Notes: generated by a model not told the origin, from the letters alone. A stretch of 64,000 nucleotides of DNA from Verrucomicrobiota bacterium (GCA_016342445.1 JAEIOF010000001.1:6777-70776), one strand, 5' to 3'. Shown: positions 11,037 to 56,071, counted from the stretch's first letter. Made by a program: numbers and translations.

Positions 11037-11043
11037 GGAAAAA

Positions 11044-34857: not shown

Positions 34858-34869
34858 ACGTCGGTTCCT

Positions 34870-35781
34870 TTATTTAGTGAAAAATTTGATGGTGGCTTCG
34901 AGGCCCTTGTCAAAACTGGAGGTCGGCTCGAAGCCGGCGGCTTTGATTTTTTCGATTGAGGCCATGGAGTGCTTCACATCCCCTGCCCGTTCCGGCGCGT
35001 ATTCGATCTTCGACGACGAGCCGGTCAGCTCAATGATTTTTCCGGCAAGATCATTGATGGTCAGGCGTTTGCCGTAAGCGACATTGAAAAAGCCGGGCTC
35101 CGTGTCGTTCATCGCCAGAAACACATTGGCTGCGACGATATCCTTCACATAGATGAAGTCGCGGGTCTGCTCGCCATCGCCGAAAATGGTGATGGTTTCG
35201 TTTTTCACCGCTTTATCGATGAAGATCGGAACGGCGGCGGCGTAGGCGCTTTTCGGATCCTGCCGCGGACCGAACACGTTGAAGTAGCGCATGACGCCGG
35301 TGGCGAGCTTGCCCTCGCGGCTGAACATGTCGCAGTAGTACTCGCCGTCGAGCTTGGTGATGGCGTACGGGCTTTTCGGCTCGGGCAGCATGGTTTCGAG
35401 CTTCGGCACGACGGGGTTGTCGCCATAGTTGGCGGCCGAGCTGGAGAAGCACATTTTCTTCACGCCGGCCTTGGCGGCCTCTTCGAGCACCACCAGCGTG
35501 CCGGTGGTGTTAATTTCGACGCACTCGATCGGCTTGTCCTTCGACTCCGGCACGCTGATCATCGCAGCCATGTGAAAAATGTAATCAACACCTTCAACCG
35601 CTTTTTTCACGACCTCCCGGTCGGTGATGGAGCCTTCGATAAATTCGTGGTCGAGCCCTTCAAGGTTTTTGAGGTAGCCGCTGCGCAGGTTATCCAAAAC
35701 CCGCACATCCGCTTTCCCCTGAAAATGCTCCACAATGTGGCTTCCGATAAATCCGGCTCCGCCGGTAACTAAAACTCTCAT
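34870..35781 (-). CDS. NAD-dependent nucleotide-sugar 4-epimerase (WbpP/GalE-like, SDR family)
   Basis: 303-aa ORF with the Rossmann motif VTGGAGFIGSH and a YxxxK catalytic motif (SPYAITK). Its start overlaps the upstream stop (ATGA). Confidence 0.85.
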   Translation of the reverse strand: MRVLVTGGAGFIGSHIVEHFQGKADVRVLDNLRSGYLKNLEGLDHEFIEGSITDREVVKKAVEGVDYIFHMAAMISVPESKDKPIECVEINTTGTLVVLEEAAKAGVKKMCFSSSAANYGDNPVVPKLETMLPEPKSPYAITKLDGEYYCDMFSREGKLATGVMRYFNVFGPRQDPKSAYAAAVPIFIDKAVKNETITIFGDGEQTRDFIYVKDIVAANVFLAMNDTEPGFFNVAYGKRLTINDLAGKIIELTGSSSKIEYAPERAGDVKHSMASIEKIKAAGFEPTSSFDKGLEATIKFFTK

Positions 35782-36872: not shown

Positions 36873-36886
36873 GGTTTTTCTCCTTT

Positions 36887-37675
36887 TTAAGCGTCGGCCT
36901 GCCACTCCGGTTTGCCTTCATAGACCCAGCGATAATAGTCCGCCAGTTTCAAATCAGTTGCGGCGGCTTCGTCGATGAAAAGTTTTGCCGACGGGTGGTG
37001 CTGCAGGATCGACGCGGGCATGATGGAGGCCACCGGGCCCTCGACCGTAGCGGCCACGGCATCTGCCTTATTTGCGCCGAAGGCGAGCATGATGTTCATG
37101 CGCGCATCCATGATCGTGCCGATGCCCATCGTGATGCAGTGATGAGGAACCTTCGATTCGTCGCCGCCAAAGAAGCGGGCATTATCCGCCACGGTCTGGC
37201 GCGTCAGCGTTTTAATGCGGGTGCGCGAAGCGAATGATGAGGTCGGTTCGTTGAACCCGACATGCCCGTCGGAACCGATACCGAGCACCTGCAGATCGAT
37301 GCCGCCAGCATCTGCAATCGCCTGCTCGTAGGCCGCGCACGCGGCGGGAACATCTTCGGCCATGCCGTCGGGAACATGGGTATTCTCCAGCTTGATATTG
37401 ATCTGGCTGAAAAGATTTTCATTCATGAAACGCCGGTACGACTGCTCGTGATCCGCAGACAAACCGATGTATTCATCGAGGTTGAAAGTGACGACCTCGC
37501 TGAAGTCGAGCCCCTCCTCGTTATGCATGCGGATCAGTTCTTTATAGAGCGTCAGCGGTGTGCTGCCGGTCGCCAGGCCCAGCACCGCATCCGGTTTCGC
37601 ACGAACCAGCCGGGCAACAACCCGCGCAGCGGCACAGCTGCCTTCCTGCGCATCTTTTTTGATAATAATTTCCAT
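36887..37675 (-). CDS. nagB: glucosamine-6-phosphate deaminase
   Basis: 262-aa ORF with LGLATGSTP and LGIGSDGHVGFNEP signatures. Confidence 0.95.
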   Translation of the reverse strand: MEIIIKKDAQEGSCAAARVVARLVRAKPDAVLGLATGSTPLTLYKELIRMHNEEGLDFSEVVTFNLDEYIGLSADHEQSYRRFMNENLFSQINIKLENTHVPDGMAEDVPAACAAYEQAIADAGGIDLQVLGIGSDGHVGFNEPTSSFASRTRIKTLTRQTVADNARFFGGDESKVPHHCITMGIGTIMDARMNIMLAFGANKADAVAATVEGPVASIMPASILQHHPSAKLFIDEAAATDLKLADYYRWVYEGKPEWQADA

Positions 37676-38466
37676 TAAATGATCTCCGTCAAATTGTCAT
37701 CCATCGCCAGCATCCGACCCGTTTCCAAGGTTCGGAAAAGTTCCCCGTCCTGCCATTTGCTCAGGCGGTAGAGCGTGGCGAACGCAAAGTCCGGCACCGC
37801 GCCGCCCTGCCCGCCGACGAGTTCGCCGCCGCGGCGGACATTGTCCTGCATCCATGCCGGAAGCAGCAGGTGATAGGGATTGCGCGCCACTTCCTCAACG
37901 TGCAGCGAGGTCGCCGCAACCAGATCGGCCAGCGTCTGCGCATCGGCCTCAACCATCAGGTTGGGATCGTCCATCGCGCCCCAGAACTCGGCTTCAATCA
38001 CCGTGCAGGAAAAATCAGACGGCATTTCCGCCAGGGCTTCCATCACCAGAAAATGGGTGGCGATGTGGCGCGAGTTCCAATCCTTGGAATGCGGGAAAAA
38101 GAGGGCCTTGGGCTGCACCGCTTTCAGAATCTCAACAAGATCCTGTTTTTCCAGATTCTGGAAGCCGTTGCGTTGCTGAATGCCCCATCCCAGGTAATCG
38201 CAGGCGTCTTGGAGTTCGGCGGCACGGCCGGGCTGGCGCTCGACATTGCTGCCGAAGGTGACGGGAACATTGATGATCTGCATTCCGGCTTCACGCATCA
38301 GCCGCAACGGAAGCAGGCCGGTAATGCACTCATCATCCGGATGCGGAGAAAAGAGCAGAACCTTTTTGTCCGATTCGACCGGCGCGGTTTTTCCTTCAGC
38401 AACCAGCCCCTTGGCCGATTCGACATTGGCCTGAATGTTTTCAACAAATTTCAGATACGGGTTCAT
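37675..38466 (-). CDS. PIG-L/LmbE family N-acetylglucosaminyl deacetylase
   Basis: 263-aa ORF with the family motif LLFSPHPDDECITG. It is translationally coupled to its neighbours (ATGA and TAATG overlaps). Confidence 0.8.
   Translation of the reverse strand: MNPYLKFVENIQANVESAKGLVAEGKTAPVESDKKVLLFSPHPDDECITGLLPLRLMREAGMQIINVPVTFGSNVERQPGRAAELQDACDYLGWGIQQRNGFQNLEKQDLVEILKAVQPKALFFPHSKDWNSRHIATHFLVMEALAEMPSDFSCTVIEAEFWGAMDDPNLMVEADAQTLADLVAATSLHVEEVARNPYHLLLPAWMQDNVRRGGELVGGQGGAVPDFAFATLYRLSKWQDGELFRTLETGRMLAMDDNLTEII
38075..38163. repeat. iterated palindrome, 2 copies in the PIG-L deacetylase gene
   Basis: TTCCAATCCTTGGAA at 38075 and TTCCAGATTCTGGAA at 38149. A degenerate TTCCAAGGTTCGGAA lies at 37723. 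Confidence 0.9.
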
Positions 38467-39830
38467 GCTTTTCCTCCGATCATCGGAAGGCTGGCGGCGG
38501 CGACCGCCTGCCCGTGCCGTTTCATCTGTTCATCGGGCGTCGTGATGCTGATCTTTTCAGCCAGCGAAGGAAACTCCGCGCGCAAAACTGCTTCAGCTTT
38601 TTCAATAATGATCTGCCCGCCCTCGCCGCTGGTGACGCGTCCAAGGATAAGCAGATTACGGAAATCGTAGAAGTCGGAATAGTGAGCAATCGTGTAGCCG
38701 AAGCAGACGCCGATGGTTTCGTAGATCTGGCGGGCGCGCTGGTCGCCTTCGGCCATCAGGCGCTGCACCTCGACGAGCTGCTCAGCGAACGGCGTGTCCG
38801 CGGGAAACTCGATTCCGGCCAGCGGGGCAAGACGCGCCACGCCTTGCTGAGAGAAGAACTGCACGCCGCAGCCGGCGTCGCCGGACCACTCGTCGACGGG
38901 GCCGTTTTCGCGATAGTCGACCGGAACAAAGGCCAGTTCATTAAGCCAGGAGGTGATGTTGCCTTCGGGCGTCACATAACCCGCCGCGAGGCTGGTGCCC
39001 ATAGAAATGCCGAGTACCGCATCGTCTTTGAGCGACATTGCCCCGGCCAAGGCGGTCACTTCGCCGTCGTTGACCACATCGAACGGGATACCGCCCCATG
39101 CTTCTTTGAGCTGCTTGAAAATAGGGCGCACCTTTTCTTCGAACTGGTCGTCCGGCACGCCGCGGAAAAGCGACGCCACGCGCACTTCGTTATTCACATA
39201 GACGCCCGCCGCGCTGCCGCCGATTGCATCAACCCGAGGAAGGTGCTCCGCCGCCCGTTTGAGCGAGGCCATCGTGCCTTCAAAATGATACTGCGGATTC
39301 TTCTCAAAATAGGGATCCCATTTGATCTCTTCGGAGAAGACCACTTCGCCGTCGATGACGGCGGCGCACTTGCGGTCGGAACCGCCGAGGTCGAAGCCGA
39401 TGCGGCAGCCGTCGAGATGCCGGCCGAGAGCCGCGCCCTCCTGCGAGGGTTCCGGAATTTCATCCGCCGCCGCTTTTTCAATTTTCAGCGCATGGTCGTA
39501 AATTTTTTCACCGATGATTTCGGAGTCGAAGCGGCCGATAGCCGAAGCGGAATAATGTTTTTCCAACCTTTGGAAAATTTCGTCCGGTCCGGCAAACAGA
39601 ACGCGATTGCCGCCGATCGCCCAGAGCATTGCTTTGAGCAGGCGTTCCAAATATTGGAAACTCCGGTCGACATCCGACAGAACCTTCAGCGTACGCCGCG
39701 CCACAACCTTGTCGTTGCGGAACAATCCGATCGTCACAGCATCGGAACTGTTTTCGGCCTCCTGCTCGAATGACCGGTTCCAAAGAACCGCCGGAACAAA
39801 CTCAGAATCTAGAATCGGTTTTATTTTCAT
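38463..39830 (-). CDS. ASKHA-superfamily sugar kinase (ROK/BadF-like) with an N-terminal extension
   Basis: 455-aa ORF with the phosphate-1 motif IGFDLGGSDRK and later glycine-rich ATP motifs. It is the first gene of the amino-sugar operon. The substrate is not determinable from sequence. Confidence 0.6.
   Translation of the reverse strand: MKIKPILDSEFVPAVLWNRSFEQEAENSSDAVTIGLFRNDKVVARRTLKVLSDVDRSFQYLERLLKAMLWAIGGNRVLFAGPDEIFQRLEKHYSASAIGRFDSEIIGEKIYDHALKIEKAAADEIPEPSQEGAALGRHLDGCRIGFDLGGSDRKCAAVIDGEVVFSEEIKWDPYFEKNPQYHFEGTMASLKRAAEHLPRVDAIGGSAAGVYVNNEVRVASLFRGVPDDQFEEKVRPIFKQLKEAWGGIPFDVVNDGEVTALAGAMSLKDDAVLGISMGTSLAAGYVTPEGNITSWLNELAFVPVDYRENGPVDEWSGDAGCGVQFFSQQGVARLAPLAGIEFPADTPFAEQLVEVQRLMAEGDQRARQIYETIGVCFGYTIAHYSDFYDFRNLLILGRVTSGEGGQIIIEKAEAVLRAEFPSLAEKISITTPDEQMKRHGQAVAAASLPMIGGKA
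39561..39659. repeat. iterated palindrome, 2 copies in the ROK-like kinase gene
   Basis: TTCCAACCTTTGGAA at 39561 and TTCCAAATATTGGAA at 39645. Confidence 0.95.
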
Positions 39831-39939
39831 GCAGACAGAGTACCCACTCCGCCAAAAAACACGAAGATCAATAAATTAACTATTTTGACCATTTTTTAAC
39901 AATATTGACTTTACGAATTAACGTCGTTATTTTCGCTGC

Positions 39940-40800
39940 ATGAAACCAATCGATAAATCCCTGTTGGAATTGGAAGAGCCGGAAGATTATTTTCAGGGAG
40001 TCGGAAAGAGAAAACTGCCGACACCCACGGAACTTCTGCTGTTCTTTCGCCCGACACGGGAAAAGCTGCAGCAGGAAGCGTTGCAGAACCGGTCGCACCA
40101 TCGCTTTGTCCTGGCCTTCAATCTGAAAAGCAAAGGTCATGTGCATGTCGACCACCTCTCCCTGAACTTCCATCCGGGACAGGCTCTACTGATCCACCCC
40201 TATCAATTCCACCACTTCAGCCAGTTGGAGTCACCAAGCCTTCAGTGGCTCTTCTGCACCTTCGAACTGGAACCCGGCACATTTCTGGAACCGTTGCGCA
40301 ACCGGGTGGTCGATATAAGCGACAAAACGCAAAAACTGATCGAACAGCTCTTGCAAGAGTGGCATCAGGAATACCAACCGGAGGCTCTGCAAGCGATCCT
40401 GCTTCACCTGTTGCTTTCCCTAAAACTGGATCGGCAGAAAACGGGCAGCGACCTGCCCCCCGAGCCACGGGACAACCTTCTTCGAAGCATCAACCGCCTG
40501 CTGGCCGAATGGCGCGGACGCACCGTAACCGTTGCCGATCTGGCGGATGCACTGGGCCTTTCGGAATCGCGGTTGCGCGCGGTATTCAAGGAAACCGCCG
40601 GCATCCCGCTCGGCAGCTATATTCAAAACTACCGGATCAACCGATCTATGTCGCTTTTGCGCACCTCAACGCTGTCAATCACCGATGTCGCCGAAGAGGC
40701 CGGCTTCGGCTCTCCACAGGCGTTCAGCCGAATCTTCAAGAAAGAAACCGGCCAAACGCCTCGCTCCTACAGAATTAATCAGCCTTGTTGCGGCGGGTGA
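39940..40800 (+). CDS. AraC family transcriptional regulator
   Basis: 286-aa ORF with an N-terminal cupin-like sensor region and a C-terminal double HTH (..VADLADALGLSESRLRAVFKE.., ..ITDVAEEAGFGSPQAFSRIFKKETGQTPRSYR). It is divergent from the amino-sugar operon. Confidence 0.9.
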   Translation: MKPIDKSLLELEEPEDYFQGVGKRKLPTPTELLLFFRPTREKLQQEALQNRSHHRFVLAFNLKSKGHVHVDHLSLNFHPGQALLIHPYQFHHFSQLESPSLQWLFCTFELEPGTFLEPLRNRVVDISDKTQKLIEQLLQEWHQEYQPEALQAILLHLLLSLKLDRQKTGSDLPPEPRDNLLRSINRLLAEWRGRTVTVADLADALGLSESRLRAVFKETAGIPLGSYIQNYRINRSMSLLRTSTLSITDVAEEAGFGSPQAFSRIFKKETGQTPRSYRINQPCCGG

Positions 40801-41039
40801 CATCCGGATTAGCGGCCCTGTCGCCGTCACGGGCGGGGAAGGCATGACCCTCACGCGGGACAGCGCCTCCCGACAGGCCTACGATGTGGAAAGCCCGAGC
40901 AATCTGGCGACCCTCAACCGATGCTTCGAACATGTGCCGCGCATGATTTCCGGGAGCGCCGACAAAGTCGATCTGACCCGCGTTTTCACGACAATTCTAC
41001 CGTGAATTGTTTTTTACCCTACCAGTGTCACTTTTTTTA

Positions 41040-41216
41040 CTATTCGGAGAGGGTCAGTTTCCGTCCGGAGTCGATCCACTGCTGCAGGATAATTTTGCAG
41101 TATTTGCTTGTGGAAATATTCATCGAGGAGGCGCGGCGATCCAGCTCATTGGCCATTTTAAGCGCCATGTTGATTCCGATAGTTTTAGTATCTTTGCCGA
41201 TGGGGTTAGTTGCCAT
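41040..41216 (-). CDS. small ribbon-helix-helix (CopG/Arc-like) protein candidate
   Basis: The internal ATG at 41216 gives MATNPIGKDTKTIGINMALKMANELDRRASSMNISTSKYCKIILQQWIDSGRKLTLSE. This has a beta-strand plus two-helix pattern like RHH proteins. It is the last ORF of the secretin module. Confidence 0.45.
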   Translation of the reverse strand: MATNPIGKDTKTIGINMALKMANELDRRASSMNISTSKYCKIILQQWIDSGRKLTLSE

Positions 41217-41265
41217 ACGCTTGCCTTTTTCGGCGGAGCCGGTCTGACCGGCCCCGCCCGCTTTA

Positions 41266-42774
41266 TTATTCAAATGAACGAGCGGACACCGCGCCACTCG
41301 GCTGAACTTTACGAGCCGTCACGAAGATCATGAGGTTACGCTTCACAGCCCGCTCCCCTTCGGAACGGAACAGGCGCCCGATGAGCGGAACGCTCCCCAG
41401 CAGCGGAACCCGGTCTTCAAACGCTTCGATTTTCTCGCCGATTAGTCCGCCCAGCCCAACGGTGGCACCGTTGGCAACCGAAATTTCGGTTTTAATTTCG
41501 CGACGTTTAAAGACAGGCAATCTGGCAACCACCGGATCGTGCTCGAACTGCAAACCGATACGCTGCTGATAATAGGTGTAGGAGCTGTTGGCAGGTGCCA
41601 GCTGATACTGCTCCCATCCGAGAAGCTCGGTGATGCGCGGGTTGATTTTCATTTTGATCTCATCGTTGTTGATCGTGGGAGTCACTTCCATCTCAACCCC
41701 AAGGATTTTCTCCTCGAAGTCTTCGTATTTCACATGGACCATCGTTCCGCCCGTTCCGCCGGACTCATAGACTTCCGGATAGGAGTGGCGTTCGCCCACA
41801 ATAATGGTTGCGGATTCGCCGCTGAGGGTCGTGATACTCGGAGCGGAGAGAACGTCCACACCGGCGGTCTGATCGAGAGCATTGATCAGCAGATCAATCG
41901 CCGTTCCGTCCATCTCGCCGGACAAGGCGAGCGTGCCCGCATCCGCGCTGAACATGTCTTCGATCCGGTTAACACTCCACTCGCCGGTGGTTGAGCGGAC
42001 TTCACCCAGCCCCAGAGTTTCGGTCTGAGTAAACGGCACGCTGCGCAGGGCGTCGGAGAACAGGTTTTGATCGCCATCCAGGCTCCAGTTGCTGGGGAGA
42101 TCAACCCCGTCCGGAGCGGACCACCGGAAGCCCAGTTCTTCGAGTGCACCTTCGGAAAACTCAACGAAGCGGGCTTCGATTTCAACCTGCTCTGCGGAGG
42201 CCTGGGCTTCGGCTTCGCCGAACGCCGCCAATACTTCCTCGAGCTTGGAGAGATTCGCGGCCGTGTTTTTCACGAACAGTTTCTGCAGATCCGGCATATA
42301 GAGAGCGGAGGATCCTTTAGGAAAGTCCACCACGGAAAACTGATCCGCAATATCGGTTACCTGATCGACGCCTTCCAGAGACATGCTTTCCACGAAGCGT
42401 TCGGTCACGGGATAATACCGCAAAATCAGTCCCCAATCCAAATCGACCTTTTTCAGGGCCGCCTCTTCGGCATTCTTATGAGTCAGGACCTTTGCCTTCT
42501 TCGCCGCGGACCGTGCGGGGACAACCGCAACGGCCTCCAGCTCGACGACCGGGGCTTCTGCAACCACGACTGGTGCTTCTGCAACCACGACCGGGGCTTC
42601 TTCTACAACCACAGCAGGCGCCTCTGCCGCCACGCCCGAGGCTTCAGTCGCCGGGGCGTTCACGACAGAGTTGAGCTCGTTCAGAACTGATTGAACGGAT
42701 CCATTGTCCTGTTGTGCAAACACGGTCCCCATCATCAGCACACTGAGTATTAAAAAATTTGTAATCTGTTTCAT
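41266..42774 (-). CDS. secretin-family outer-membrane channel protein (paralog A)
   Basis: 502-aa ORF with a signal peptide, an (EAPVVVA)x3 linker, one N1-like domain (FPKGSSALYMPDLQKLFVKNTAANLSKLEEVL) and a secretin domain. The C-terminal signature is GLGGLIGEK...RVPLLGSVPLIGRLFRSEGERAVKRNLMIFVTARKV. Confidence 0.8.
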   Translation of the reverse strand: MKQITNFLILSVLMMGTVFAQQDNGSVQSVLNELNSVVNAPATEASGVAAEAPAVVVEEAPVVVAEAPVVVAEAPVVELEAVAVVPARSAAKKAKVLTHKNAEEAALKKVDLDWGLILRYYPVTERFVESMSLEGVDQVTDIADQFSVVDFPKGSSALYMPDLQKLFVKNTAANLSKLEEVLAAFGEAEAQASAEQVEIEARFVEFSEGALEELGFRWSAPDGVDLPSNWSLDGDQNLFSDALRSVPFTQTETLGLGEVRSTTGEWSVNRIEDMFSADAGTLALSGEMDGTAIDLLINALDQTAGVDVLSAPSITTLSGESATIIVGERHSYPEVYESGGTGGTMVHVKYEDFEEKILGVEMEVTPTINNDEIKMKINPRITELLGWEQYQLAPANSSYTYYQQRIGLQFEHDPVVARLPVFKRREIKTEISVANGATVGLGGLIGEKIEAFEDRVPLLGSVPLIGRLFRSEGERAVKRNLMIFVTARKVQPSGAVSARSFE

Positions 42775-42798
42775 GAGTTTCTCCTTTTCTTAAATCGT

Positions 42799-44421
42799 TC
42801 AGTTATTGAGCGCCGCAGCCGACCGGCTCTGCCCATTGTTATTCAACTGAGTGGCAGATACAAAGATCATGAGGTTGCGCTTGATGCTCTTCTCGCCTTC
42901 CGAACGGAACAGACGGCCCAGCAGAGGGATGCTGCCGAGGACGGGGACCTTGTCCTTGTAGGTTTCGAGACGGTCATAAATGAGTCCGCCCAGACCGACG
43001 GTGCTGCCGTCAGCAACCGCCACTTTGGTTTTGATTTCGCGCACCCGGAAATAGGGAAGTTGTCCGTTGATCGACGGGAGCGGGATGCCCAGCTCGTCAT
43101 GATGGATCGGAGCGCTCTGACTGTAATAACCGTATTGTGGAGATCGATAGTTGTCTGCGGGAACAGTATCGCTGCTGTCGTTGGGGTCATTATTATCCCC
43201 AAGGAACGGGGACAATGATTCCTGAGCCAGATTCCAAAGACCATTAACGGATGATGTGTTGAAGATCGGAAACCGTCCCTGCGGGCGAATGGTGTTCGCG
43301 CCATATCCGTTATAAACCATCATGGAGGCGTTCGGGGAGAGCTGATAGGTGTCGTAGCCGATCAGATCGATAATCTTCGGGTTGAGATCCAGACGGATCA
43401 GGTTGTTCTCCTGGATTTTCGGCGTCACGCTGAACTGAACGCCCATCAGCTCGGAATTCCAGTCGCTGTGCTCCACATGGATATTCACTTCTGACGATTT
43501 GGTCTGGAAGCCTTTCGGAACCATGCGGTCTTCACCCACCCAGATTTCAGCTTTTTTCCCGTCCGTGGTGGTCAGGCTCGGGGCGGAAAGCACATCGGAA
43601 TCACCGGCCTGCTCGAGAGCATCGATCGCAAGCGTCAAGGGCATCCAGCCGGTTTTGGTCAACACCATGGATCCAACTGCCGGGGCCCCGCCAAAGGCGG
43701 CGGCGGCCGTACGGATCCCGGCCCCAAATACGTCCTGATTCGGATTGACCATCCAGTCGGTATCAAACAGACGCGCTCCATCGCCGATATCCTGAATATC
43801 CCAGGTGAAGCCGAGCTGATTGAGTGTGCTCTGACTGACTTCAATAAATTTGGCGTTGATCTCAACCTGTTCGAAGTCCTGCTCCCCTTTTGCATAGGTG
43901 GCCAGGATGCTTTCAACCTGCGCGAGGTTGGACGGTGTGTTGCGCACCAGCAACTGCCCGTAAGCTGATTGGAAATCAGCCGAGGCCCCTTTCGGAAAGT
44001 CGACTCCGCTGAAGAAGGGCGTCACGTCCAGGAAGGCACCGCGCTGAACCCCGTCAATCTCCATCGCCTTGCTGATCGCGGGACTAACTCTGTAGGAGCG
44101 GAACAGAATATCGCCTGAATTGTCCCAACCATCGGTAACGGTTTGCAGCATCTCGTCACGGGTCGCCTCTTGCAGATCCCCGGCAAATGCCGACTGGATG
44201 CCGTACGCTGTGTTGCGAAGTTCGTCACTGGTGTAGCCCATCACATCCGCGACGACTTTAACGGTATCAGCCGGAAGATCTTTCACGGCATCTACGACGG
44301 ATTCGAGCACCACGTCACTTTCATCCGGCAATCCGGTCGGCGAGGTGATCACCACTTCAGCCGATGCGAATCGTGCAAACGCCGATGCGACTGTTATGAG
44401 CCAAACAATACTTTTCTTCAT
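42799..44421 (-). CDS. secretin-family outer-membrane channel protein (paralog B)
   Basis: 540-aa ORF with a signal peptide, an N1-like domain (FPKGASADFQSAYGQLLVRNTPSNLAQVESIL) and a secretin domain. The C-terminal signature is GLGGLIYDR...KVPVLGSIPLLGRLFRSEGEKSIKRNLMIFVSATQL. Confidence 0.8.
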   Translation of the reverse strand: MKKSIVWLITVASAFARFASAEVVITSPTGLPDESDVVLESVVDAVKDLPADTVKVVADVMGYTSDELRNTAYGIQSAFAGDLQEATRDEMLQTVTDGWDNSGDILFRSYRVSPAISKAMEIDGVQRGAFLDVTPFFSGVDFPKGASADFQSAYGQLLVRNTPSNLAQVESILATYAKGEQDFEQVEINAKFIEVSQSTLNQLGFTWDIQDIGDGARLFDTDWMVNPNQDVFGAGIRTAAAAFGGAPAVGSMVLTKTGWMPLTLAIDALEQAGDSDVLSAPSLTTTDGKKAEIWVGEDRMVPKGFQTKSSEVNIHVEHSDWNSELMGVQFSVTPKIQENNLIRLDLNPKIIDLIGYDTYQLSPNASMMVYNGYGANTIRPQGRFPIFNTSSVNGLWNLAQESLSPFLGDNNDPNDSSDTVPADNYRSPQYGYYSQSAPIHHDELGIPLPSINGQLPYFRVREIKTKVAVADGSTVGLGGLIYDRLETYKDKVPVLGSIPLLGRLFRSEGEKSIKRNLMIFVSATQLNNNGQSRSAAALNN

Positions 44422-44539
44422 TCTCTGCTCCTTGCATTTTGGGGGTTGTATCCGCGACCTCGCAAACTTACAACCCGCTGTTCCCTGACCCTATTATCCT
44501 GCCGATATCTCCCGCTGGAGCCCCGGCCCATGAAACTCT

Positions 44540-47500
44540 CTACTCCGCTGTCACTTTATAATAGACCACCGGTTCTTTACTGTGCGCCGCATCCAGGTAC
44601 GCCGTCCCGTCCGTCACCGTGGCCAAAAGATTCCACCCGCTCATCAAATCCGCCGTCCAATAAATCTTGTAGGTTCGTTGCGACCCGTCGAGCGGAGCTT
44701 CCCATGAGAGAAGCGCGCCGTTTGCGGTGCGCGTTACTTCCGGCGTAAAGGCCGATGCGGCATCCTGCGGATCGGTTCCGGCGATTCGTTCGTCGTCATC
44801 GGCGACCCCGTCGCCATCGCTGTCATCCGTTGGGGCCGCAGAGAAAACGGTCTGCTGGCTATTGGTAACCGTAAAGGTGACGTCGAGTGTGTTTGTTCCG
44901 GGCGTCCCGTTATGCACAATATTCAACTGCGTGTCGGCGCTGATCGTATTGCCGCCCAACGCAAGGCCGGACGCATTGCCGGTGAGTGTGATTTCCGCCG
45001 TGCCCCCGACGGGAACAGAACCGCTATTTGGCGAGTAGGTAATGACCTGAACCTCATCGGGCTGAACCGCAATGACGCGTTCTGAAACCGAGTCGACATA
45101 TTGGGTATATGAGGTGCTGGAGGTTGGGTAATTGGTGTTGATCGTCCAGTCACCCGCCTGACGGATATCTCCGGATCCGGCGAATAACACTCCGCTCCCT
45201 GCCCCACTCCCCACGACATCACGCACCACATTCCGCAACCCGCCAACCACTGTTTTCGGCCACGAATGTCCTTCCAAAAACTTATACTGGCAGGTGATGC
45301 GTCCAGTCGGTTCCAAAATGACCTGGAATGTAAGATTACTTCCGGCTTCATATCCGTACTGCCCCATATTTTCCCAGGTAACAACAAGACGCTCCGCTGT
45401 GGAGTGGTATTTGAGGGTGGCGTTCCCGTCGATAAACAGATCGCCGCCGTAGGGGGCAATCAGTTGATCGGGCAAAATCGCAGGAAGCTTGTCCGAGGCG
45501 ATATCCCGCACATCAAAAATCCGCCCCGTGGTATCGAGCCGCAGGGCCCCGTTCACTCCGATGCAGAATTCACTGTAGCTTGTGCCAAAAAACGGAAACG
45601 CAAATCCGATAGGAATCATTTCGCTATAGCCTTCATCGGCGGCAGTCACAAACGGATTTACACCGGGTTTAATCAGATCAGCCGGATGGCCGATGGCGGA
45701 GATATCAACCCAGTCGTACACAGCGTTTGTTACAACAATCATCGTAGCCGTCAGGGCGCTGTCATCACTGATCGTGAAGGTCAGCGGACCGGTTCCCGTG
45801 TTGGTAATGACAAACGGAGCGGATGTGACCTGCCCGGCGGCCCCTGTGAAAGAGAGGCTGGAAACGGCGCTGTAGGCCGGCATTGCCGCCGTAACCGTGG
45901 CGCTCACCGCAACGGCGTCCGAGGTGCCGGTGCTCCAGTTAAAGGTGGCAGTGAAGCTGTTACTGTCTCCCGCGCTTCGATCGGTTGCATCCGCGATGAA
46001 GGTCACCTCAACGGACTGCTGCGGGCCGACGCTCACGTTGCTGGCGGGCGCATAAGACACCCAACGAACCGGAACCGGCATGATCAAGACAGAGGTCCCG
46101 CTCGCCGGAGTGATGGAAAGATTTTCATAGTGATCGGCATCGCCCTGAATGCCGACGGTCACCCGATCCAATCGGTCGCCATTGATGTTTTTATAGCGAA
46201 ACTCGACCCGGCCATCGGCATAAAGAATGGCCTGAAATGACAGGTTGGTTCCACCATAGGTGAGTTTATCGACCCCCAGATAGGAGATCACAACCCGCTC
46301 TTCACTCGCCGTGTAGCGGATGCTGCCTTCCGGCGAGCTCAGCATGCTCCAGAATGGCGCGATCAGCGGGTTGTCATCGCCATCGGGCAGTGCGCCATAG
46401 CTGTCGCCAAGTGCAGGCGTGTTGGTCGTATTACCCAAGCCGATCACCCCGTCCGATGTGACATAGAACTTGCTGTATGTTATGCCATAAAGAGGGAAGT
46501 TAAACCCAAGATCTATCGCCGAGCTGACCCCCTTGGTTGCGGGGCTATCTCCGTTCAATGTGATGGGTGTAGCAGCTCCGGCAAACCGGTTGTCTCCTGT
46601 TTCGACAGCATAAACAACATCCCAGACCGCATCATCCGTGATCGTAAAGGAAACCGGAGCATTCCCGCTGTTTGTCACGGTGACGGTTGTGGCATCACTC
46701 TGTCCTTCCACAGCGCTCAAATTAACTACGGCGGGTGTAATGGCCGGCAAAGCATCCACGAAGATATCCATAGAGAAGGTGTCCGCCCAAACCCTGGAAC
46801 CGGCCTGGTTGGTTACACTGAACCAATGGGTTCCGGCAGGCGTATTCGGATCGATCGTGACCCGATAGGTCGTCGAGGTGGCGTCACCAACAGCCATAAA
46901 CGGATACAGGGATGAGGTGAGGTTTGAAATCGAAAAATACGACAGATTTGCAGACAGAGAATTTACAATATTACTGACATCGTTCGCACCGTTGTTTGTG
47001 CTGAATACCGTTATATCGACCACTTCATTGGGTTCGTATCTTCCGGAGACCACTCCACCGGAAACTTCTGCAACGCTGTTGGTCAGGTAGATGATCGACG
47101 AGCCAACCGTCAGCGGGAATGTCGTATTCGTGTATACTCCGCCGTCAGCGGTGACCTCCACATTAAAGTCGTGCGTACCGGTCTGAGCATTGGTGTTGGC
47201 CACCAGGAAAAAGGTGTTCGTGAGATATTCCGGATAGCTCAACGTCTCGGGGGAGCTGTTGGAAACAATCGTGAAATACTCCGGGTGGGCGACCGCGCTC
47301 ACAAACGAAATAACGTTGGTCGCTGGTGCATTAAGATTACGAATCACCACGGCAACAGTATTGGTCTCGCCGATTTCAGTGCTCGCCATTCCGCTTGGAT
47401 TGGTAACCGTAACACTAACGATCTCAAGCATCGGCCCTGTGGAAAAATCAGGAGTCGGAATCAGGATATCCGCCCATGTTGAGGCCGTGCGCAGATTGTC

Positions 47501-48190
47501 CATACGGGCAAAGTCCGAGGACCCCAGCGGGCGAAAATCGCCCGTCGCATGGAAACGGAGATTATCGATGGCCCCCAGCGTGATATTGGTTGAAAAAGAA
47601 GGCGTGCTTACATCAAATTCATCCGACCCAGTCAAACTGTACCAAACCTTCAGCGTATTACTGTCCAAATCCACTGCGGCAATCGCCGTCAACGTCCCGC
47701 TTTGAGCGATCTCATCCTCAGCCGCAACAGTTACCGTATAATTAGTCGGTGCCGCATCGCCGCCAGTATCATAATTCAATACCAATCCGGCCACCTTGCC
47801 ATTGGAGCTGTCAGTGAAGTAGGCCCCGAATATGGCCCCGCTGTCGTTCAACGCGTTGGTCAGCGAGTACTCTATGTCGTAGCGCAGATAGCAAATTCCA
47901 GAAGTTCGACTGGCGACCCCGGCATCAAGGACGGCACCATTGGTCCACATACCGTTTACACCAACGGCATCATTTATACAGAGGAGCCCTCCGAGGCCGT
48001 CTGTTTCTAAAAAGCCGGCACCGCCGCTCGAAAAAACCGAACCCTCGCTTCCGACATTTTCCGCCTGAGATAAGGTCAACCCGGCAAGGTCTGCTTCAAA
48101 CGTCCACTCATTGGACACTTCCGCTCCCGCCGAAATTGCGAAGAAAAAAAGGATGAAATGTAAACTTACCGTTATAAAAAGTTTTTTCAT
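44540..48190 (-). CDS. 1216-aa secreted multidomain protein with two NIDO-like domains, a thrombospondin-type-3-like Asp-rich Ca-binding motif and a C-terminal beta-sandwich
   Basis: Signal peptide MKKLFITVSLHFILFFFAISAGA. Two ~115-aa modules match the NIDO pattern (GFNFPLYGITYSKFYVTSDG..IAPFW..FQAILYADGRVEFRY and IGFAFPFFGTSYSEFCIGVNG..IAPYGGDL..VVTWENMG..TFQVILEPTGRITCQY). The motif DDSDGDGVADDDE lies near the C-terminus. Confidence 0.75.
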   Translation of the reverse strand: MKKLFITVSLHFILFFFAISAGAEVSNEWTFEADLAGLTLSQAENVGSEGSVFSSGGAGFLETDGLGGLLCINDAVGVNGMWTNGAVLDAGVASRTSGICYLRYDIEYSLTNALNDSGAIFGAYFTDSSNGKVAGLVLNYDTGGDAAPTNYTVTVAAEDEIAQSGTLTAIAAVDLDSNTLKVWYSLTGSDEFDVSTPSFSTNITLGAIDNLRFHATGDFRPLGSSDFARMDNLRTASTWADILIPTPDFSTGPMLEIVSVTVTNPSGMASTEIGETNTVAVVIRNLNAPATNVISFVSAVAHPEYFTIVSNSSPETLSYPEYLTNTFFLVANTNAQTGTHDFNVEVTADGGVYTNTTFPLTVGSSIIYLTNSVAEVSGGVVSGRYEPNEVVDITVFSTNNGANDVSNIVNSLSANLSYFSISNLTSSLYPFMAVGDATSTTYRVTIDPNTPAGTHWFSVTNQAGSRVWADTFSMDIFVDALPAITPAVVNLSAVEGQSDATTVTVTNSGNAPVSFTITDDAVWDVVYAVETGDNRFAGAATPITLNGDSPATKGVSSAIDLGFNFPLYGITYSKFYVTSDGVIGLGNTTNTPALGDSYGALPDGDDNPLIAPFWSMLSSPEGSIRYTASEERVVISYLGVDKLTYGGTNLSFQAILYADGRVEFRYKNINGDRLDRVTVGIQGDADHYENLSITPASGTSVLIMPVPVRWVSYAPASNVSVGPQQSVEVTFIADATDRSAGDSNSFTATFNWSTGTSDAVAVSATVTAAMPAYSAVSSLSFTGAAGQVTSAPFVITNTGTGPLTFTISDDSALTATMIVVTNAVYDWVDISAIGHPADLIKPGVNPFVTAADEGYSEMIPIGFAFPFFGTSYSEFCIGVNGALRLDTTGRIFDVRDIASDKLPAILPDQLIAPYGGDLFIDGNATLKYHSTAERLVVTWENMGQYGYEAGSNLTFQVILEPTGRITCQYKFLEGHSWPKTVVGGLRNVVRDVVGSGAGSGVLFAGSGDIRQAGDWTINTNYPTSSTSYTQYVDSVSERVIAVQPDEVQVITYSPNSGSVPVGGTAEITLTGNASGLALGGNTISADTQLNIVHNGTPGTNTLDVTFTVTNSQQTVFSAAPTDDSDGDGVADDDERIAGTDPQDAASAFTPEVTRTANGALLSWEAPLDGSQRTYKIYWTADLMSGWNLLATVTDGTAYLDAAHSKEPVVYYKVTAE

Positions 48191-48400: not shown

Positions 48401-48763
48401 TTGCGACACGGCGAACCCGCCAATCCAGCGCTCCATGTGAATGAAAAAGAAAAGACCGCCTTTGCTGAGGATCTGCCCCCCCCTCCCTCTCTCTCCGAAC
48501 TGGATGACAACCTCCCCAAAACCATTGACCGCCTGATGGCCGAATGTAGAGGAAGACCCGTCGCGGGTGCCGACCTGACAAGAGAGCTCGGTCTGCCTGA
48601 ATCGCAATTGAGAATCACATTCAAGACGACCGCGGGCATCCCGTCGGGAAATGATTTTAAGAATTACCGTATTAACAAAGCCATGTCGCTTTTGCGCACC
48701 TCAACCCTATCGATCACCGATATTACCGGAGAAGCTGGGCTCGGCTCGCCCCAATCCTTATAG
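48401..48763 (+). pseudogene. truncated AraC-family regulator (C-terminal HTH half only, frameshifted end)
   Basis: The translation ..LPKTIDRLMAECRGRPVAGADLTRELGLPESQLRITFKTTAGIPSGNDFKNYRINKAMSLLRTSTLSITDITGEAGLGSPQSL aligns with residues ~165-270 of the AraC gene at 39940..40800. This includes a 23-nt identical DNA stretch (48683-48705 = 40648-40670). There is no sensor domain. Homology continues past the stop in another frame (SRIKNSNTPRE vs SRIFKKETGQTPRS). Confidence 0.7.
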
Positions 48764-51023: not shown

Positions 51024-51707
51024 TCATTTAAGATATGCCTGAACCCGGTCTTCAATAGCCGCAGCCCATAGCCCATACCCTGCCTCGTTGGGATGAAGGA
51101 GATCCGGCATAATGGTTTCAGGCAAAACACTATTCTCACCCAGAAAAACCGTATTGATGTCGATGAACTCCACAAACGAATAGGATTGAGCAACTGCCTT
51201 GATCAAGACATTGGCTTGTTCATTATTTTTCCGCAGAGGATCACTCGCATCCAGGCCCCGCGGGAAAATTGCATGTAAAAGAATATGGCTCGCAGGCGAT
51301 CTGAAGTGGATACATTCAACGATGGCTTTGACACCGGCGCAGATCTCCTCGGGAGAATCCATCCGGCGTCCCGTATTATTTGTCCCGGCCATGAGCACGA
51401 CGAGTTCCGGCGCAATCTGCTCAAAAATTCCGTTTTCAAGCCGCCATAAAATATTCTCGGTACAGTCGCCGCCGCTCCCGACATTCACGGCCTTGCGATC
51501 GGCATAATACTTTTCCCATACACGCAGGCCATACTCATCAAGGCTCCAGTGTTCAGTGATGGAATCGCCAACAAACAGCAGTTCACAATCCGACATATCC
51601 CTTGTGGCCTGGATCTGACGGCCGAACTTCTCCATCCACATCACGATGTGGTTTTCCATATCGGGATTGGGGGTTCGGATGGCCGGACGGGTGGCTAAGC
51701 AGTTCAC
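51024..51707 (-). CDS. SGNH/GDSL hydrolase (carbohydrate O-acetylesterase candidate)
   Basis: 227-aa ORF with block I FVGDSITEHW, block III AGTNNTG and block V PDLLHPN. Its start overlaps the upstream stop (ATGA). Confidence 0.8.
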   Translation of the reverse strand: MNCLATRPAIRTPNPDMENHIVMWMEKFGRQIQATRDMSDCELLFVGDSITEHWSLDEYGLRVWEKYYADRKAVNVGSGGDCTENILWRLENGIFEQIAPELVVLMAGTNNTGRRMDSPEEICAGVKAIVECIHFRSPASHILLHAIFPRGLDASDPLRKNNEQANVLIKAVAQSYSFVEFIDINTVFLGENSVLPETIMPDLLHPNEAGYGLWAAAIEDRVQAYLK

Positions 51708-52417
51708 TTCGGGTCTCCCTTCAGATCGAGCAAAGCATACTCTTCAATCAAATGATAGTCGGTGGCGGACAAGGCCGGTGCCATGGAAAGCTCCGGATCG
51801 GACAGATCCTCCGAGTTGTAGTTGTAGCGCCCGCAGAAGACCGTCCATTTCGTGCCCTCGCCCCACCCCGCGCCAAGCGCGGTAAGTTGCGAGGCCGGGA
51901 CGAACATCCGCGCTTTCCAACCCTTGGACCTGAGGTATTCCGAAAGTGCTTTTGGTATTCCCAAAAGAAGAGAGCGAAGCGAACGGCAACGAGGCTGAGC
52001 CTCCACCCTGTTATTCTTCCAAGGTTTGGAAAATTCTATGCTCGTAACTTCCAGACATTGGAAATCATGTTCGTTCAGCGCTTGCTCCGGGGTAAGTTCC
52101 GAGGGCCATTCCGGAAAAAAAAGCGTTGTTTTGTTGCCGAACGGCGTGGCGTACATTTCCCACTTGTAAGGCGCATGCAGCGGCTTCACAAACAACTCCA
52201 GCACATCGCCGGTCTGATAATGCAACTGCTGGTCCTCCCGGTTCTGCTGAATCAGACAGGAGTCCTCCAGTTCGGCAGAAACATACAGGCCGGACTCATC
52301 CCACGCAAAGCGGACGGTCGCGCCTTCCTTCGGCGAGCCTTCACAATCGTTACTGAACGCAAACGGATAAACAGGGCCATACTCCGGATAACGGGCGGCT
52401 TCAAAAACAGGTCTCAT
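51704..52417 (-). CDS. CBM9-like / DOMON-like carbohydrate-binding domain protein
   Basis: 237-aa ORF with ..ATVRFAWDESGLYVSAELEDS.., the pattern I associate with the family 9-like binding domain. It contains a repeat-encoded insertion (FQCLEVTSIEFSKPWKN..). Confidence 0.5.
   Translation of the reverse strand: MRPVFEAARYPEYGPVYPFAFSNDCEGSPKEGATVRFAWDESGLYVSAELEDSCLIQQNREDQQLHYQTGDVLELFVKPLHAPYKWEMYATPFGNKTTLFFPEWPSELTPEQALNEHDFQCLEVTSIEFSKPWKNNRVEAQPRCRSLRSLLLGIPKALSEYLRSKGWKARMFVPASQLTALGAGWGEGTKWTVFCGRYNYNSEDLSDPELSMAPALSATDYHLIEEYALLDLKGDPK
52017..52063. repeat. iterated palindrome, 2 copies 32 bp apart in the CBM9-like gene
   Basis: TTCCAAGGTTTGGAA at 52017 and TTCCAGACATTGGAA at 52049. 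A degenerate TTCCAACCCTTGGAC lies at 51915. Confidence 0.9.
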
Positions 52418-52418
52418 G

Positions 52419-56057: not shown

Positions 56058-56071
56058 TCGTTATCCTTTTC

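What the first reader, a model, noticed from the sequence alone, without database searches (positions are those of the whole stretch)
41040..48190. Orphan module: two tandem secretin paralogs, a 1216-aa secreted NIDO-domain protein and a small RHH protein, with no other secretion-system genes
Both secretins have signal peptides, one N1-like domain and the canonical C-terminal secretin signature (..VP.LGS.PL.GRLFRSEGE...KRNLMIFV.A). They are clearly paralogous to each other. They are short (502 and 540 aa), and one has an (EAPVVVA)x3 spacer. The window contains no GspE/PilB ATPase, no platform protein, no pseudopilins, no PilMNOP, and no phage or T3SS genes. Immediately upstream in the same transcriptional direction is a giant secreted protein. 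Secretins characterised so far are homo-oligomeric and work with inner-membrane machinery. A two-paralog secretin set dedicated to a single large cargo would be a new arrangement. It could be a hetero-oligomeric channel or two stacked or alternative channels. This is a hypothesis from gene order only.
Basis: inference. Interest (0 to 1): 0.7.

Follow-up and report, generated by a model that had tools for sequence, protein, structure and literature searches.

The report
Paired-secretin plus exoprotein cassette of Kiritimatiellales
The two adjacent outer-membrane channel (secretin) genes and the giant secreted protein beside them are a real three-gene cassette that is conserved, often in several copies per genome, across one order of marine and freshwater sugar-degrading bacteria, always without the usual secretion motor genes nearby, so it may be an undescribed way of using secretins.

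Summary
On the minus strand lie a 1216-aa Sec-dependent all-beta exoprotein (44540-48190), secretin B (42799-44421), secretin A (41266-42774) and a 58-aa RHH-like ORF.

In about 75 related loci from Kiritimatiellales genomes and metagenomes:
- Every A-type secretin with enough upstream sequence (46 of 46) has a B-type secretin directly upstream.
- 35 of 39 informative loci carry a homologue of the exoprotein next to the pair, on either side.
- Several genomes hold 2-3 cassettes. The window's own assembly holds a second secretin pair.
- The A/B duplication predates the cassette radiation, and A and B distances co-vary (r = 0.95).
- No T2SS/T4P ATPase or prepilin motif occurs in 873 kb of cassette surroundings.

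Both secretins have only one N-domain plus the secretin core. No N0 domain is detectable. The exoproteins share a C-terminal domain that in most ends ...YYKVTV[EQ].

Best reading: a cargo-specific secretin pair. Whether the ring is mixed, and whether it needs inner-membrane machinery encoded elsewhere, could not be tested. The RHH ORF is not part of the conserved unit, and the NIDO assignment is weak. I found no paper describing this. It is a new variant of a known kind; interest 0.65.

The parts
44540..48190 (-). Exoprotein ('big'), 1216 aa: signal peptide, N-terminal family domain, Ig-like beta-sandwich array with two NIDO-like repeats, TSP3 repeat, conserved C-terminal domain
   Evidence: ORF. 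Homologues adjacent to secretin pairs. AF2 all-beta model, mean pLDDT 74. Foldseek hits only Ig-like/MG domain arrays. No sequence match in the PDB.
48119..48190 (-). Signal peptide of the exoprotein (residues 1-24, ...SAGA/EV)
   Evidence: Sequence. Homologue P0182 aligns from residue 1. The public gene call starts at codon 25.
47456..48118 (-). N-terminal family domain (residues 25-245)
   Evidence: Exhaustive HMMER finds only 72 cluster representatives in 1.84 billion. In full-length proteins the first copy lies at or close to the N-terminus (mostly from about residue 20-45), in 1-3 copies that are usually tandem. It is 50% identical to the N-terminus of SASA esterases that are not next to secretins.
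46184..46507 (-). NIDO-like repeat 1 (residues 562-669)
   Evidence: Motif GFNFPLYG...FRYKNI by eye. The Pfam NIDO hit is borderline.
45275..45607 (-). NIDO-like repeat 2 (residues 862-972)
   Evidence: Best Pfam NIDO stretch is 933-964, whole-protein E = 1.4e-5. Coordinates.
44543..44833 (-). TSP3 repeat plus conserved C-terminal domain (residues 1120-1216, ending ...PVVYYKVTAE)
   Evidence: TSP3_bac hit. A CTD HMM hits 95 of 124 family proteins, most of which end ...YYKVTV[EQ]. It also hits the exoprotein next to the secretin pair in nearly all loci where that gene's C-terminus is on the contig, including those lacking the N-domain.
44422..44539 (-). 118-nt spacer between the exoprotein and secretin B, with RBS (AAGGAG) before the ATG at 44421
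   Evidence: Sequence.
42799..44421 (-). Secretin B (540 aa): signal peptide, conserved N-terminal peptide (SDVVLESVVDAVKDLP), one N-domain (~105-181), secretin core with a ~75-aa insertion (371-445)
   Evidence: Pfam Secretin E = 1.2e-33. NCBIfam scores all below cut-offs. Family conservation. Always directly upstream of an A-type secretin.
42775..42798 (-). 24-nt secB-secA spacer with RBS (AAAGGAG)
   Evidence: Sequence. The gap is roughly 20-30 nt in most related loci with start-trimmed ORFs.
41266..42774 (-). Secretin A (502 aa): signal peptide, conserved SVQSVLNEL peptide, A/P/E/V-rich spacer with (EAPVVVA) repeats, one N-domain (116-192), secretin core (193-490)
   Evidence: Pfam Secretin E = 8.6e-35. 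PDB sequence hits to GspD/PilQ cover only N3 and the core. AF2. Top 36 Foldseek hits are all secretins. Repeat.
41040..41216 (-). 58-aa RHH-like ORF; associated only in the closest relatives, so probably not a core part
   Evidence: Sequence. 84% identical copies after secA in L002 and L004 only. Sub-threshold BrnA hit.

Best explanation
This is one copy of a lineage-specific three-gene cassette of Kiritimatiellales (PVC superphylum).

The exoprotein is a large, Sec-exported, non-enzymatic, all-beta protein. It has an N-terminal family domain, an Ig-like/NIDO-like middle, a Ca-binding TSP3 linker and a conserved C-terminal beta-sandwich ending ...YYKVT[AV]E. Beside it lie a cognate pair of anciently diverged, co-expressed short secretins, B then A.

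Proposed mechanism (inferred):
- After Sec export the exoprotein folds in the periplasm.
- It is passed through, and possibly stays tethered to, an outer-membrane conduit built from the two secretins.
- Recognition most likely occurs through its conserved terminal domain(s).
- The exoprotein then serves as a surface fibre or adhesin.

Shown: gene content; the invariance of the B-A tandem; the adjacency and co-diversification of the exoprotein; multi-copy status; the reduced secretin architecture (signal peptide, flexible linker, one N-domain, core; no detectable N0, no S-domain, no lipobox); and the local absence of T2SS/T4P motor or pilin motifs.

Inferred: that the exoprotein is the cargo; that both secretins act in one channel (a mixed ring or two rings); and the energy source. 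My guess for the energy source is a T2SS/T4P-type piston encoded elsewhere acting in trans (about half of this scenario). The alternatives are no motor, or another envelope motor.
For: - Secretin identity.
- 46 of 46 A-type secretins have a B-type directly upstream on the same strand, and 35 of 39 informative loci have an adjacent exoprotein homologue, 22 downstream and 13 upstream (built).
- Only the secretins and the exoprotein are conserved among flanking ORFs. 109 neighbouring proteins fall into 107 Pfam families.
- 2-3 cassettes occur per MAG. A second pair lies in the window's own assembly, ERZ24794676 NODE_4.
- The cassette occurs in records labelled Pontiellaceae and Tichowtungia and in a MAG labelled Kiritimatiellaceae.
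- The A/B split is older than all cassettes: A-A minimum 42% identity against A-B maximum 39%. Pairwise distances correlate at r = 0.95 for A against B and 0.66 for A against the exoprotein. Upstream-type and downstream-type cassettes form separate clades in all three trees.
- The CTD is present in the adjacent exoprotein in nearly all loci where its C-terminus is on the contig, and the extreme C-terminus is strongly conserved.
- Both secretin genes have their own RBS, with a 24-nt gap between them.
- The exoprotein has no enzyme fold.
- A canonical GspD found in the same scan (L077) does give Pfam N0 and Secretin_N hits with GspC and GspL beside it, whereas the window secretins give neither.
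Against: - There is no experimental or structural evidence that the exoprotein passes through these secretins.
- All characterised secretins work with inner-membrane machinery, and none was seen here only because just +/-10 kb per locus could be read.
- The phylum is reported to have a T2SS (PMC5148204).
- Four informative loci lack a detectable family exoprotein. L026 and L029 carry a different protein with a CTD-like end, plus a TPR/ExbB/ExbD cluster. L040 carries a PEP-CTERM protein and an IS fragment. L058 has nothing detectable.
- The N-domain also occurs on esterases that are not next to secretins, so it is not cassette-exclusive.
- Correlated distances are expected from linkage alone.
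Confidence: 0.5

Rival explanations
1. The exoprotein is not cargo. It is an accessory or structural partner of the secretin channel, for example a surface cap, tether or glycan-binding arm. The channel moves something else: exopolysaccharide or slime outward, or large polysaccharides or DNA inward.
For: [quoted passage not shown]
- PilQ/HofQ-type secretins take up DNA; the NCBIfam 'DNA uptake porin HofQ' models give sub-threshold hits.
- The exoprotein is non-enzymatic and built of Ig-like and lectin-like modules.
- Its N-domain is shared with carbohydrate esterases in a polysaccharide-utilisation locus.
- The window cassette sits among lyases, sulfatases and a sugar symporter.
- A variant cassette is followed by TPR-ExbB-ExbD-ExbD genes typical of energised outer-membrane transport.
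- Spring et al. found no TonB-dependent uptake systems in K. glycovorans.
Against: - Association with polysaccharide-utilisation genes is not general: only 2 of 109 neighbours are sulfatases and the flanks are heterogeneous.
- The exoproteins vary greatly in length (about 700-2700 aa) and in their middle regions. That is more typical of a surface-exposed product than of a machine part.
- There is no polysaccharide synthesis or export gene in the cassette.
Confidence: 0.25
2. The two secretins are ordinary outer-membrane components of a T2SS or T4P whose other genes lie elsewhere ('displaced components'). The neighbouring exoprotein is just one of many substrates, or a bystander.
For: - The best sequence and profile matches are GspD, PilQ and the Akkermansia Amuc_1098 T4P secretin family.
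- A T2SS is reported for K. glycovorans.
- A T4P is inferred in the common ancestor of this clade.
- Gene clusters for such systems are often split in non-proteobacterial phyla (general knowledge).
Against: - There are several paralogous pairs per genome, each linked to its own paralogous exoprotein and co-diversifying with it.
- All scores are far below the family cut-offs: 146 against 351 bits for GspD, 123 against 284 for PilQ, 202 against 750 for Amuc_1098.
- No N0 docking domain is detected, whereas a canonical GspD in L077 shows it.
- No pilin or ATPase motif occurs in 873 kb around ~75 cassettes.
Confidence: 0.15
3. An autonomous secretin-only export pathway. A mixed A/B ring recognises the conserved C-terminal (or N-terminal) domain of the exoprotein and lets it out without any T2SS/T4P motor, analogous in logic to two-partner secretion.
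For: - Both paralogues have a minimal architecture without N0.
- Linkage within the cassette is strict and no other conserved partner gene exists.
- Most exoproteins share a conserved extreme C-terminus...YYKVTV[EQ].
- No motor genes are nearby.
Against: - There is no precedent for motor-independent secretin gating.
- Inner-membrane partners elsewhere could not be excluded.
- Conserved N-terminal peptides on long flexible linkers in both secretins look like docking sites for some periplasmic or inner-membrane partner.
Confidence: 0.1

Closest known systems
T2SS secretin GspD, with T2SS variants dedicated to one neighbouring substrate (e.g. Klebsiella Pul/PulA, Pseudomonas Hxc/LapA; general knowledge)
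   Same: Same C-terminal secretin core with the VP.LG..P.LG.LFR motif and one N3-like ring domain. The best PDB sequence matches are GspD chains. The logic of a substrate gene next to its export genes is the same.
   Different: No N0/N1/N2 and no S-domain. 146 bits against the 351-bit cut-off of TIGR02517. There are two paralogous secretins instead of one. No GspC/E/F/G-M genes lie nearby. A canonical GspC-GspD-GspL locus (L077) looks quite different.
Type IV pilus secretins: PilQ and the Akkermansia Amuc_1098 family (NF042912)
   Same: The top NCBIfam hit for both paralogues is Amuc_1098_fam, over the C-terminal ~140 residues. The top Foldseek hit is V. cholerae competence PilQ. The PVC lineage is shared.
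   Different: 202 and 164 bits against a cut-off of 750. The proteins are about 300 residues shorter and have no AMIN or N0 domains. No pilM/N/O/P or pilin genes are nearby.
Two-partner secretion (TpsA/TpsB) and chaperone-usher operons (general knowledge)
   Same: The logic is similar: a large beta-rich exoprotein encoded next to its own dedicated outer-membrane channel, in multiple paralogous cassettes per genome, each channel co-evolving with its cargo.
   Different: The channel here is a secretin (a multimeric gated pore for folded proteins), not an Omp85 or usher barrel. There is no TPS domain. Two channel paralogues are present.
T9SS C-terminal domain (CTD) sorting signal (general knowledge)
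   Same: A ~75-100-aa beta-sandwich at the extreme C-terminus shared by the exoproteins, with a conserved last strand.
   Different: No sequence relationship was shown, and there are no T9SS genes. A role for the domain as a signal is only inferred here.
Secretin 'slime nozzles' of cyanobacteria and myxobacteria (PMC12475490)
   Same: A precedent for secretins being used for something other than classical T2SS protein export or pili.
   Different: Those are canonical single PilQ/GspD proteins. No paired paralogues or linked exoprotein are described in the abstract.

Membership tests
Secretin superfamily (Pfam PF00263) | C-terminal secretin domain scoring above the Pfam gathering threshold | tested here: met
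   120.3 and 116.5 bits against a cut-off of 27.5. The top 36 Foldseek PDB hits of the secA model are all secretins.
Secretin superfamily (Pfam PF00263) | Signal peptide and at least one periplasmic N (ring-building) domain before the core | tested here: met
   SPase-I signal peptides by sequence. A beta-alpha-beta-beta-alpha domain at residues 117-190 with pLDDT 82-86. It aligns to the N3 region of GspD.
T2SS secretin GspD (TIGR02517 equivalog) | Score at or above the curated cut-off; N0-N1-N2-N3 architecture | tested here: not met
   145.7 and 150.4 bits against 351.35. The match starts at profile position 305 of 600. There are no Pfam N0 or Secretin_N hits, whereas the control GspD in L077 gives both.
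Type IV pilus secretin PilQ (TIGR02515) and Amuc_1098 family (NF042912) | Score at or above the curated cut-off | tested here: not met
   PilQ: 123 and 115 bits against 284. Amuc_1098: 202 and 164 bits against 750.
Complete T2SS or T4P system | GspE/PilB-type ATPase, GspF/PilC platform and prepilin-like (pseudo)pilins encoded with the secretin | tested here: not met
   None among ~42 window ORFs scanned with Pfam. None in the 10 kb beyond the left edge. No Walker-A, RQDPD or prepilin-core motif in six-frame translations of 78 sequences totalling 873 kb. None in the gene tables of L001, L002, L037, L039 and L040.
Complete T2SS or T4P system | The same components encoded anywhere else in the genome | not testable with these tools
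   Only +/-10 kb around known proteins can be read. The literature says only that K. glycovorans has 'a type II secretion system' and that a T4P is inferred in the clade's ancestor.
NIDO (nidogen-like) domain proteins (PF06119) | Domain hit above the gathering threshold | tested here: inconclusive
   25.7 bits against 25 for the whole protein, but no single stretch passes. 4 of 20 family members hit at E <= 0.01. A few homologues have a precomputed PF06119 hit.
Ribbon-helix-helix / BrnA antitoxin (NF047399) | Score at or above the cut-off; partner toxin gene adjacent | tested here: not met
   20.7 bits against 60. No Pfam hit. No toxin-like ORF is adjacent.
Hetero-oligomeric (mixed-subunit) secretin channel (hypothetical class) | Physical co-assembly of A and B subunits | not testable with these tools
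   Only indirect evidence exists: invariant tandem order, spacers of roughly 20-30 nt where start-trimmed ORFs allow a measurement, and r = 0.95 between the distance matrices.

The most novel reading that the evidence does not exclude
Kiritimatiellales possess a previously unrecognised, self-contained secretion or display pathway. A hetero-oligomeric or two-ring channel made of two N0-less secretin paralogues exports a cognate giant beta-sandwich exoprotein. The exoprotein is recognised through a conserved C-terminal domain (in most family members ending ...YYKVTV[EQ]-COOH). No T2SS/T4P motor is involved, making this a secretin-based counterpart of two-partner secretion.
Probability: 0.12. Interest if true: 0.9.

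Novelty: new variant of a known kind. Interest (0 to 1): 0.65.

Why it matters
Secretins are textbook homo-oligomeric gates that always serve a trans-envelope machine (T2SS, T3SS, T4P or filamentous phage). A strictly paired, anciently duplicated secretin couple raises two direct questions. The couple has lost the N0 docking domain, is inherited together with its own giant exoprotein, and is multiplied within genomes. Can secretin rings be heteromeric? Can they be gated without the canonical piston?

It would also point to how little-studied PVC polysaccharide degraders build their cell surface. It would define a candidate C-terminal sorting or tethering domain that could be tested by simple fusions. 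Cultured hosts exist (Tichowtungia aerotolerans carries the cassette), so the questions are experimentally tractable.

Tried and rejected
1. A homologue search with the C-terminal domain alone returned nothing, because the query was too short for the word index. I replaced it with local HMMs.
2. Look-ups of two further exoprotein homologues (P0126, P0179) from a MAG that shares the P0045 protein cluster with the window's assembly failed.
3. The supplement of Spring et al. 2016 with the T2SS gene list is not held.
4. Literature searches for Kiritimatiell* with secretin/T2SS, for tandem, heteromeric or paralogous secretins, and for orphan secretins found nothing relevant.
5. The idea that cassettes are parts of polysaccharide-utilisation loci was rejected as a general rule. 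The neighbours are heterogeneous, and the only recurring synteny is murG-murC-accD-comF in 4-6 loci.
6. The sigma-70 promoter and terminator scan was uninformative, with counts at or below shuffle expectation.
7. The monomer AF2 model of secretin A is poor (pLDDT 52), as is usual for secretin protomers. I used it only for the N-domain and the fold class.
8. Phage origin (pIV-like) was rejected. There are no phage genes, and the cassette is inherited across the order in chromosomal contexts.
9. A genome-wide T2SS/T4P census was not achievable. I found no way to retrieve a Kiritimatiellales GspE/PilB as a seed.

Full report
**What is in the window**

On the minus strand there are four consecutive ORFs:
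- 44540-48190, 1216 aa (the exoprotein).
- 42799-44421, 540 aa, here called secretin B.
- 41266-42774, 502 aa, here called secretin A.
- 41040-41297, a small ORF.

Both mid-sized proteins carry a full Pfam Secretin domain, with E = 8.6e-35 and 1.2e-33. They are paralogues: 32% identical over the N-domain and barrel, and 51% over the last ~100 residues.

Each has an SPase-I type signal peptide and no lipobox. A flexible N-terminal stretch follows. In A it contains a 21-nt x2.7 repeat encoding EAPVVVA. Then comes one N-domain and the secretin core. The spacers are 118 nt (exoprotein to B) and 24 nt (B to A), each with a good RBS.

The small ORF most likely starts at ATG 41216, giving 58 aa. It has an RHH-like pattern but only a sub-threshold BrnA hit.

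The 1216-aa protein starts with a signal peptide. The public gene call of 1192 aa omits it, but homologues align from residue 1. Its Pfam hits are only weak: NIDO, TSP3_bac and a HYDIN-type Ig domain.

**Is the window free of other secretion genes?**

Yes, locally. Pfam scans of all ~42 substantial ORFs found:
- a dcw cell-wall cluster, glmS and citrate synthase;
- an amino-sugar-related gene set, two AraC-type genes and an SSF symporter;
- a PL8 lyase, a chondroitinase-B-like lyase, a fucosidase and sulfatases.

No T2SS, T4P, T3SS or phage families appeared. Six-frame motif scans for the T2SSE Walker A, the RQDPD box and the prepilin core found nothing. The 10 kb beyond the left edge holds queuosine genes and a PEP-CTERM protein.

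**Relatives**

Secretin A has 1732 hits at E <= 1e-10. The top 120 are 43-87% identical. All those that carry an organism name are Kiritimatiellales or 'Verrucomicrobia' MAGs, plus the isolate Tichowtungia aerotolerans. I gathered loci from three sources:
- one scan of species-representative genomes;
- one scan of JGI metagenomes;
- several exact-protein look-ups.

This gave about 75 loci, 873 kb in total with the window. Classification with local HMMs gave:
- 72 A-type secretin genes.
- All 46 with at least 1.2 kb of upstream sequence have a B-type secretin directly upstream on the same strand. The spacer is roughly 20-30 nt in most loci where start-trimmed ORFs allow a measurement.
- Of the loci with both secretins, 35 have a homologue of the 1216-aa protein immediately adjacent: 22 downstream (B-A-exo) and 13 upstream (exo-B-A, as in the window).
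- 11 loci are cut too short to tell, and 4 have none.

All-against-all clustering of flanking ORFs shows that nothing else is conserved. 109 neighbouring proteins fall into 107 Pfam families. The only recurring synteny is murG-murC-accD-comF in 4-6 Tichowtungia-like loci.

Several MAGs carry two or three separate cassettes. The window's own assembly, ENA ERZ24794676, has a second pair on another contig of equal coverage. The cassette occurs in records labelled Pontiellaceae and Tichowtungia, and in a MAG labelled Kiritimatiellaceae.

**Evolutionary pattern**

Every A is closer to every other A (at least 42% identity) than to any B (at most 39%). The duplication therefore predates the radiation of the cassettes.

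Pairwise distance matrices correlate at r = 0.95 for A against B, and 0.66 for either secretin against the exoprotein. Upstream-type and downstream-type cassettes form separate clades in all three proteins.

The three genes have therefore been inherited and duplicated as a block without shuffling. That is what a specific functional partnership predicts, although linkage alone would also give it.

**The secretins**

The best profile matches are, in order:

| NCBIfam model | Secretin A (bits) | Secretin B (bits) | Cut-off |
|---|---|---|---|
| Amuc_1098 T4P family | 202 | 164 | 750 |
| GspD | 146 | 150 | 351 |
| PilQ | 123 | 115 | 284 |

All are far below the curated cut-offs, and the matches cover only the N3-equivalent domain and the core.

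PDB sequence hits are GspD, PilQ, RcpA and pIV, again only over N3 and the core. The AF2 protomer model is poor overall (pLDDT 52) but confident for a single N-domain at 117-190. Its top 36 structural neighbours are all secretins.

No Pfam N0 or Secretin_N hit is obtained. As a positive control, a canonical GspC-GspD-GspL locus picked up by the same scan (L077) shows both domains.

Both paralogues carry a short, conserved peptide at the mature N-terminus ahead of a variable linker. In A it is ...SVQSILNEL.... In B it is ...SDVVLESAV..K..P.DTV.... These are plausible docking motifs for an unknown partner. B has a ~75-aa insertion in the region between the gate and the C-terminal conserved block.

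**The exoprotein**

The AF2 model (mean pLDDT 74) is an all-beta string of sandwiches. Foldseek finds only Ig-like/MG-domain arrays such as HYDIN-type ciliary proteins, complement C5 and alpha-2-macroglobulin. No enzyme fold appears, and there is no sequence match in the PDB.

Two modules define the family:
- *The N-terminal domain (residues 25-245).* It is rare: 72 cluster representatives among 1.84 billion. In full-length proteins the first copy lies at or close to the N-terminus, in one to three copies that are usually tandem. It also heads ~975-aa SASA-type esterases in a Pontiella polysaccharide locus that has no secretins.
- *The C-terminal domain, which follows a TSP3 repeat.* It is found in the exoprotein next to the secretin pair in nearly all loci where that gene's C-terminus is on the contig, including those without the N-domain. 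In most family members it ends with the motif ...PV[IV][FY]YKVTV[EQ]-COOH.

The NIDO assignment is weak, though two NIDO-like repeats are visible by eye.

**Exceptions**

These are informative:
- L026 and L029 have a more divergent pair. It is preceded by a different 730-850-aa FN3/CBM4_9 protein with a similar-looking C-terminal end. It is followed by a 202-aa ORF, a 1059-aa TPR protein, ExbB and two ExbD genes.
- L040, in the window's own assembly, has a 264-aa PEP-CTERM protein and an IS30-like fragment after the pair.

**Interpretation**

Its central idea, a secretin pair specifically tied to the neighbouring giant protein, gains strong comparative support.

What remains inference:
- that the protein is the cargo rather than an accessory;
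- that A and B co-assemble;
- that no inner-membrane machinery is needed.

The last point could not be tested. Only +/-10 kb around known proteins is readable. The literature states only that K. glycovorans has 'a type II secretion system' (PMC5148204) and that a type IV pilus is inferred for the clade's ancestor (PMC9816063).

I therefore favour a cargo-specific secretin-pair cassette (0.5), probably energised in trans. The alternatives are:
- an accessory role for the exoprotein in a channel that moves polymers in or out (0.25; precedent for non-protein export in PMC12475490);
- plain displaced T2SS/T4P secretins (0.15);
- a fully autonomous pathway (0.1).

**Novelty**

No paper in the searchable library describes tandem paralogous secretins or this cassette. 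It is best classed as a new variant of a known kind (secretin-based export). There is a modest chance of being categorically new if motor-independent or heteromeric. The RHH ORF should be dropped from the module.

Noticed in passing
L040 (ENA ERZ24794676 NODE_4, same assembly and coverage as the window's contig), 8391-12940: A second secB-secA pair in the same genome is followed not by a family exoprotein but by a 264-aa PEP-CTERM protein (…VIPEPATVGMLGLGALVTMFVRRFKRR) and a 128-aa IS30-like transposase fragment. The cassette may have been disrupted, or there may be a link to exosortase substrates.
   Followed up: partly
L026 6225-19041 and L029 5262-16366: A divergent cassette variant: an FN3/CBM4_9 exoprotein, then secB', secA', a 202-aa ORF, a 1059-aa TPR protein, a 148-aa TPR ORF, ExbB, ExbD, ExbD and a 371-aa ORF. 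Stop and start codons overlap from the 202-aa ORF onward. This could hint at a proton-motive-force motor coupled to a secretin pair.
   Followed up: partly
L036 10001-12937 (Pontiella contig): A 978-aa SASA-family carbohydrate esterase begins with the same N-terminal domain (50% identity to exoprotein residues 1-245) and ends with TSP3 plus a CTD-like domain. It sits in a rhamnosidase/sulfatase locus with no secretins nearby.
   Followed up: partly
window 33680-41039: In the closest relatives (L002, L004) an S4/FtsJ methyltransferase gene follows the RHH ORF within ~200 nt. In the window a gene of the same architecture (32924-33679) is ~7.3 kb away. In between lie an AraC regulator, a 455-aa unknown, a PIG-L deacetylase, a glucosamine-6-P isomerase-like gene, an APH-type kinase, an epimerase and a 382-aa unknown. 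This looks like an inserted amino-sugar gene set.
   Followed up: partly
window 48440-48763 (+): A short (~108 aa) ORF with a single AraC-type HTH_18 motif lies between the exoprotein promoter region and the divergently oriented SSF symporter gene. It may be a truncated regulator.
   Followed up: no
alignment A1 (secretin A orthologues) and L076 2148-4730: Many secretin A orthologues carry a TPR-like helical hairpin (Y..G....A...F..V...DP.N..A..YL.K) in the N-terminal linker. The window's copy lacks it and has the EAPVVVA repeats there instead. A distant single 860-aa secretin (L076) has several N-terminal TPR repeats, reminiscent of a fused pilotin.
   Followed up: no
L001, L013, L019 and similar loci, directly upstream of secB: In Tichowtungia-type genomes the pair sits next to a divergently transcribed murG-murC-accD-comF(ComFC-like) block. 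In the window the dcw cluster (12.7-23.9 kb) ends at ftsW and lies ~17 kb from the cassette.
   Followed up: partly
L024 4021-4962: A 313-aa ORF made of degenerate FSQVDKR.D repeats is inserted between secretin A and the exoprotein gene.
   Followed up: no
L034 (contig labelled Desulfuromusa sp. MAG): A 3.4-kb contig with a typical secA-exoprotein junction is assigned to a Desulfuromusa bin. This is probably a binning error rather than evidence of the cassette outside Kiritimatiellales.
   Followed up: no
window 51024-63968 (-): A polysaccharide-degradation cluster: GDSL esterase, a 237-aa CBM9-like protein, a 1212-aa PL8 lyase with a C-terminal DUF1961, a chondroitinase-B-like lyase, an alpha-L-fucosidase, two sulfatases and a 503-aa He_PIG/CBM-like protein. 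It is consistent with a sulfated-glycan specialist.
   Followed up: no
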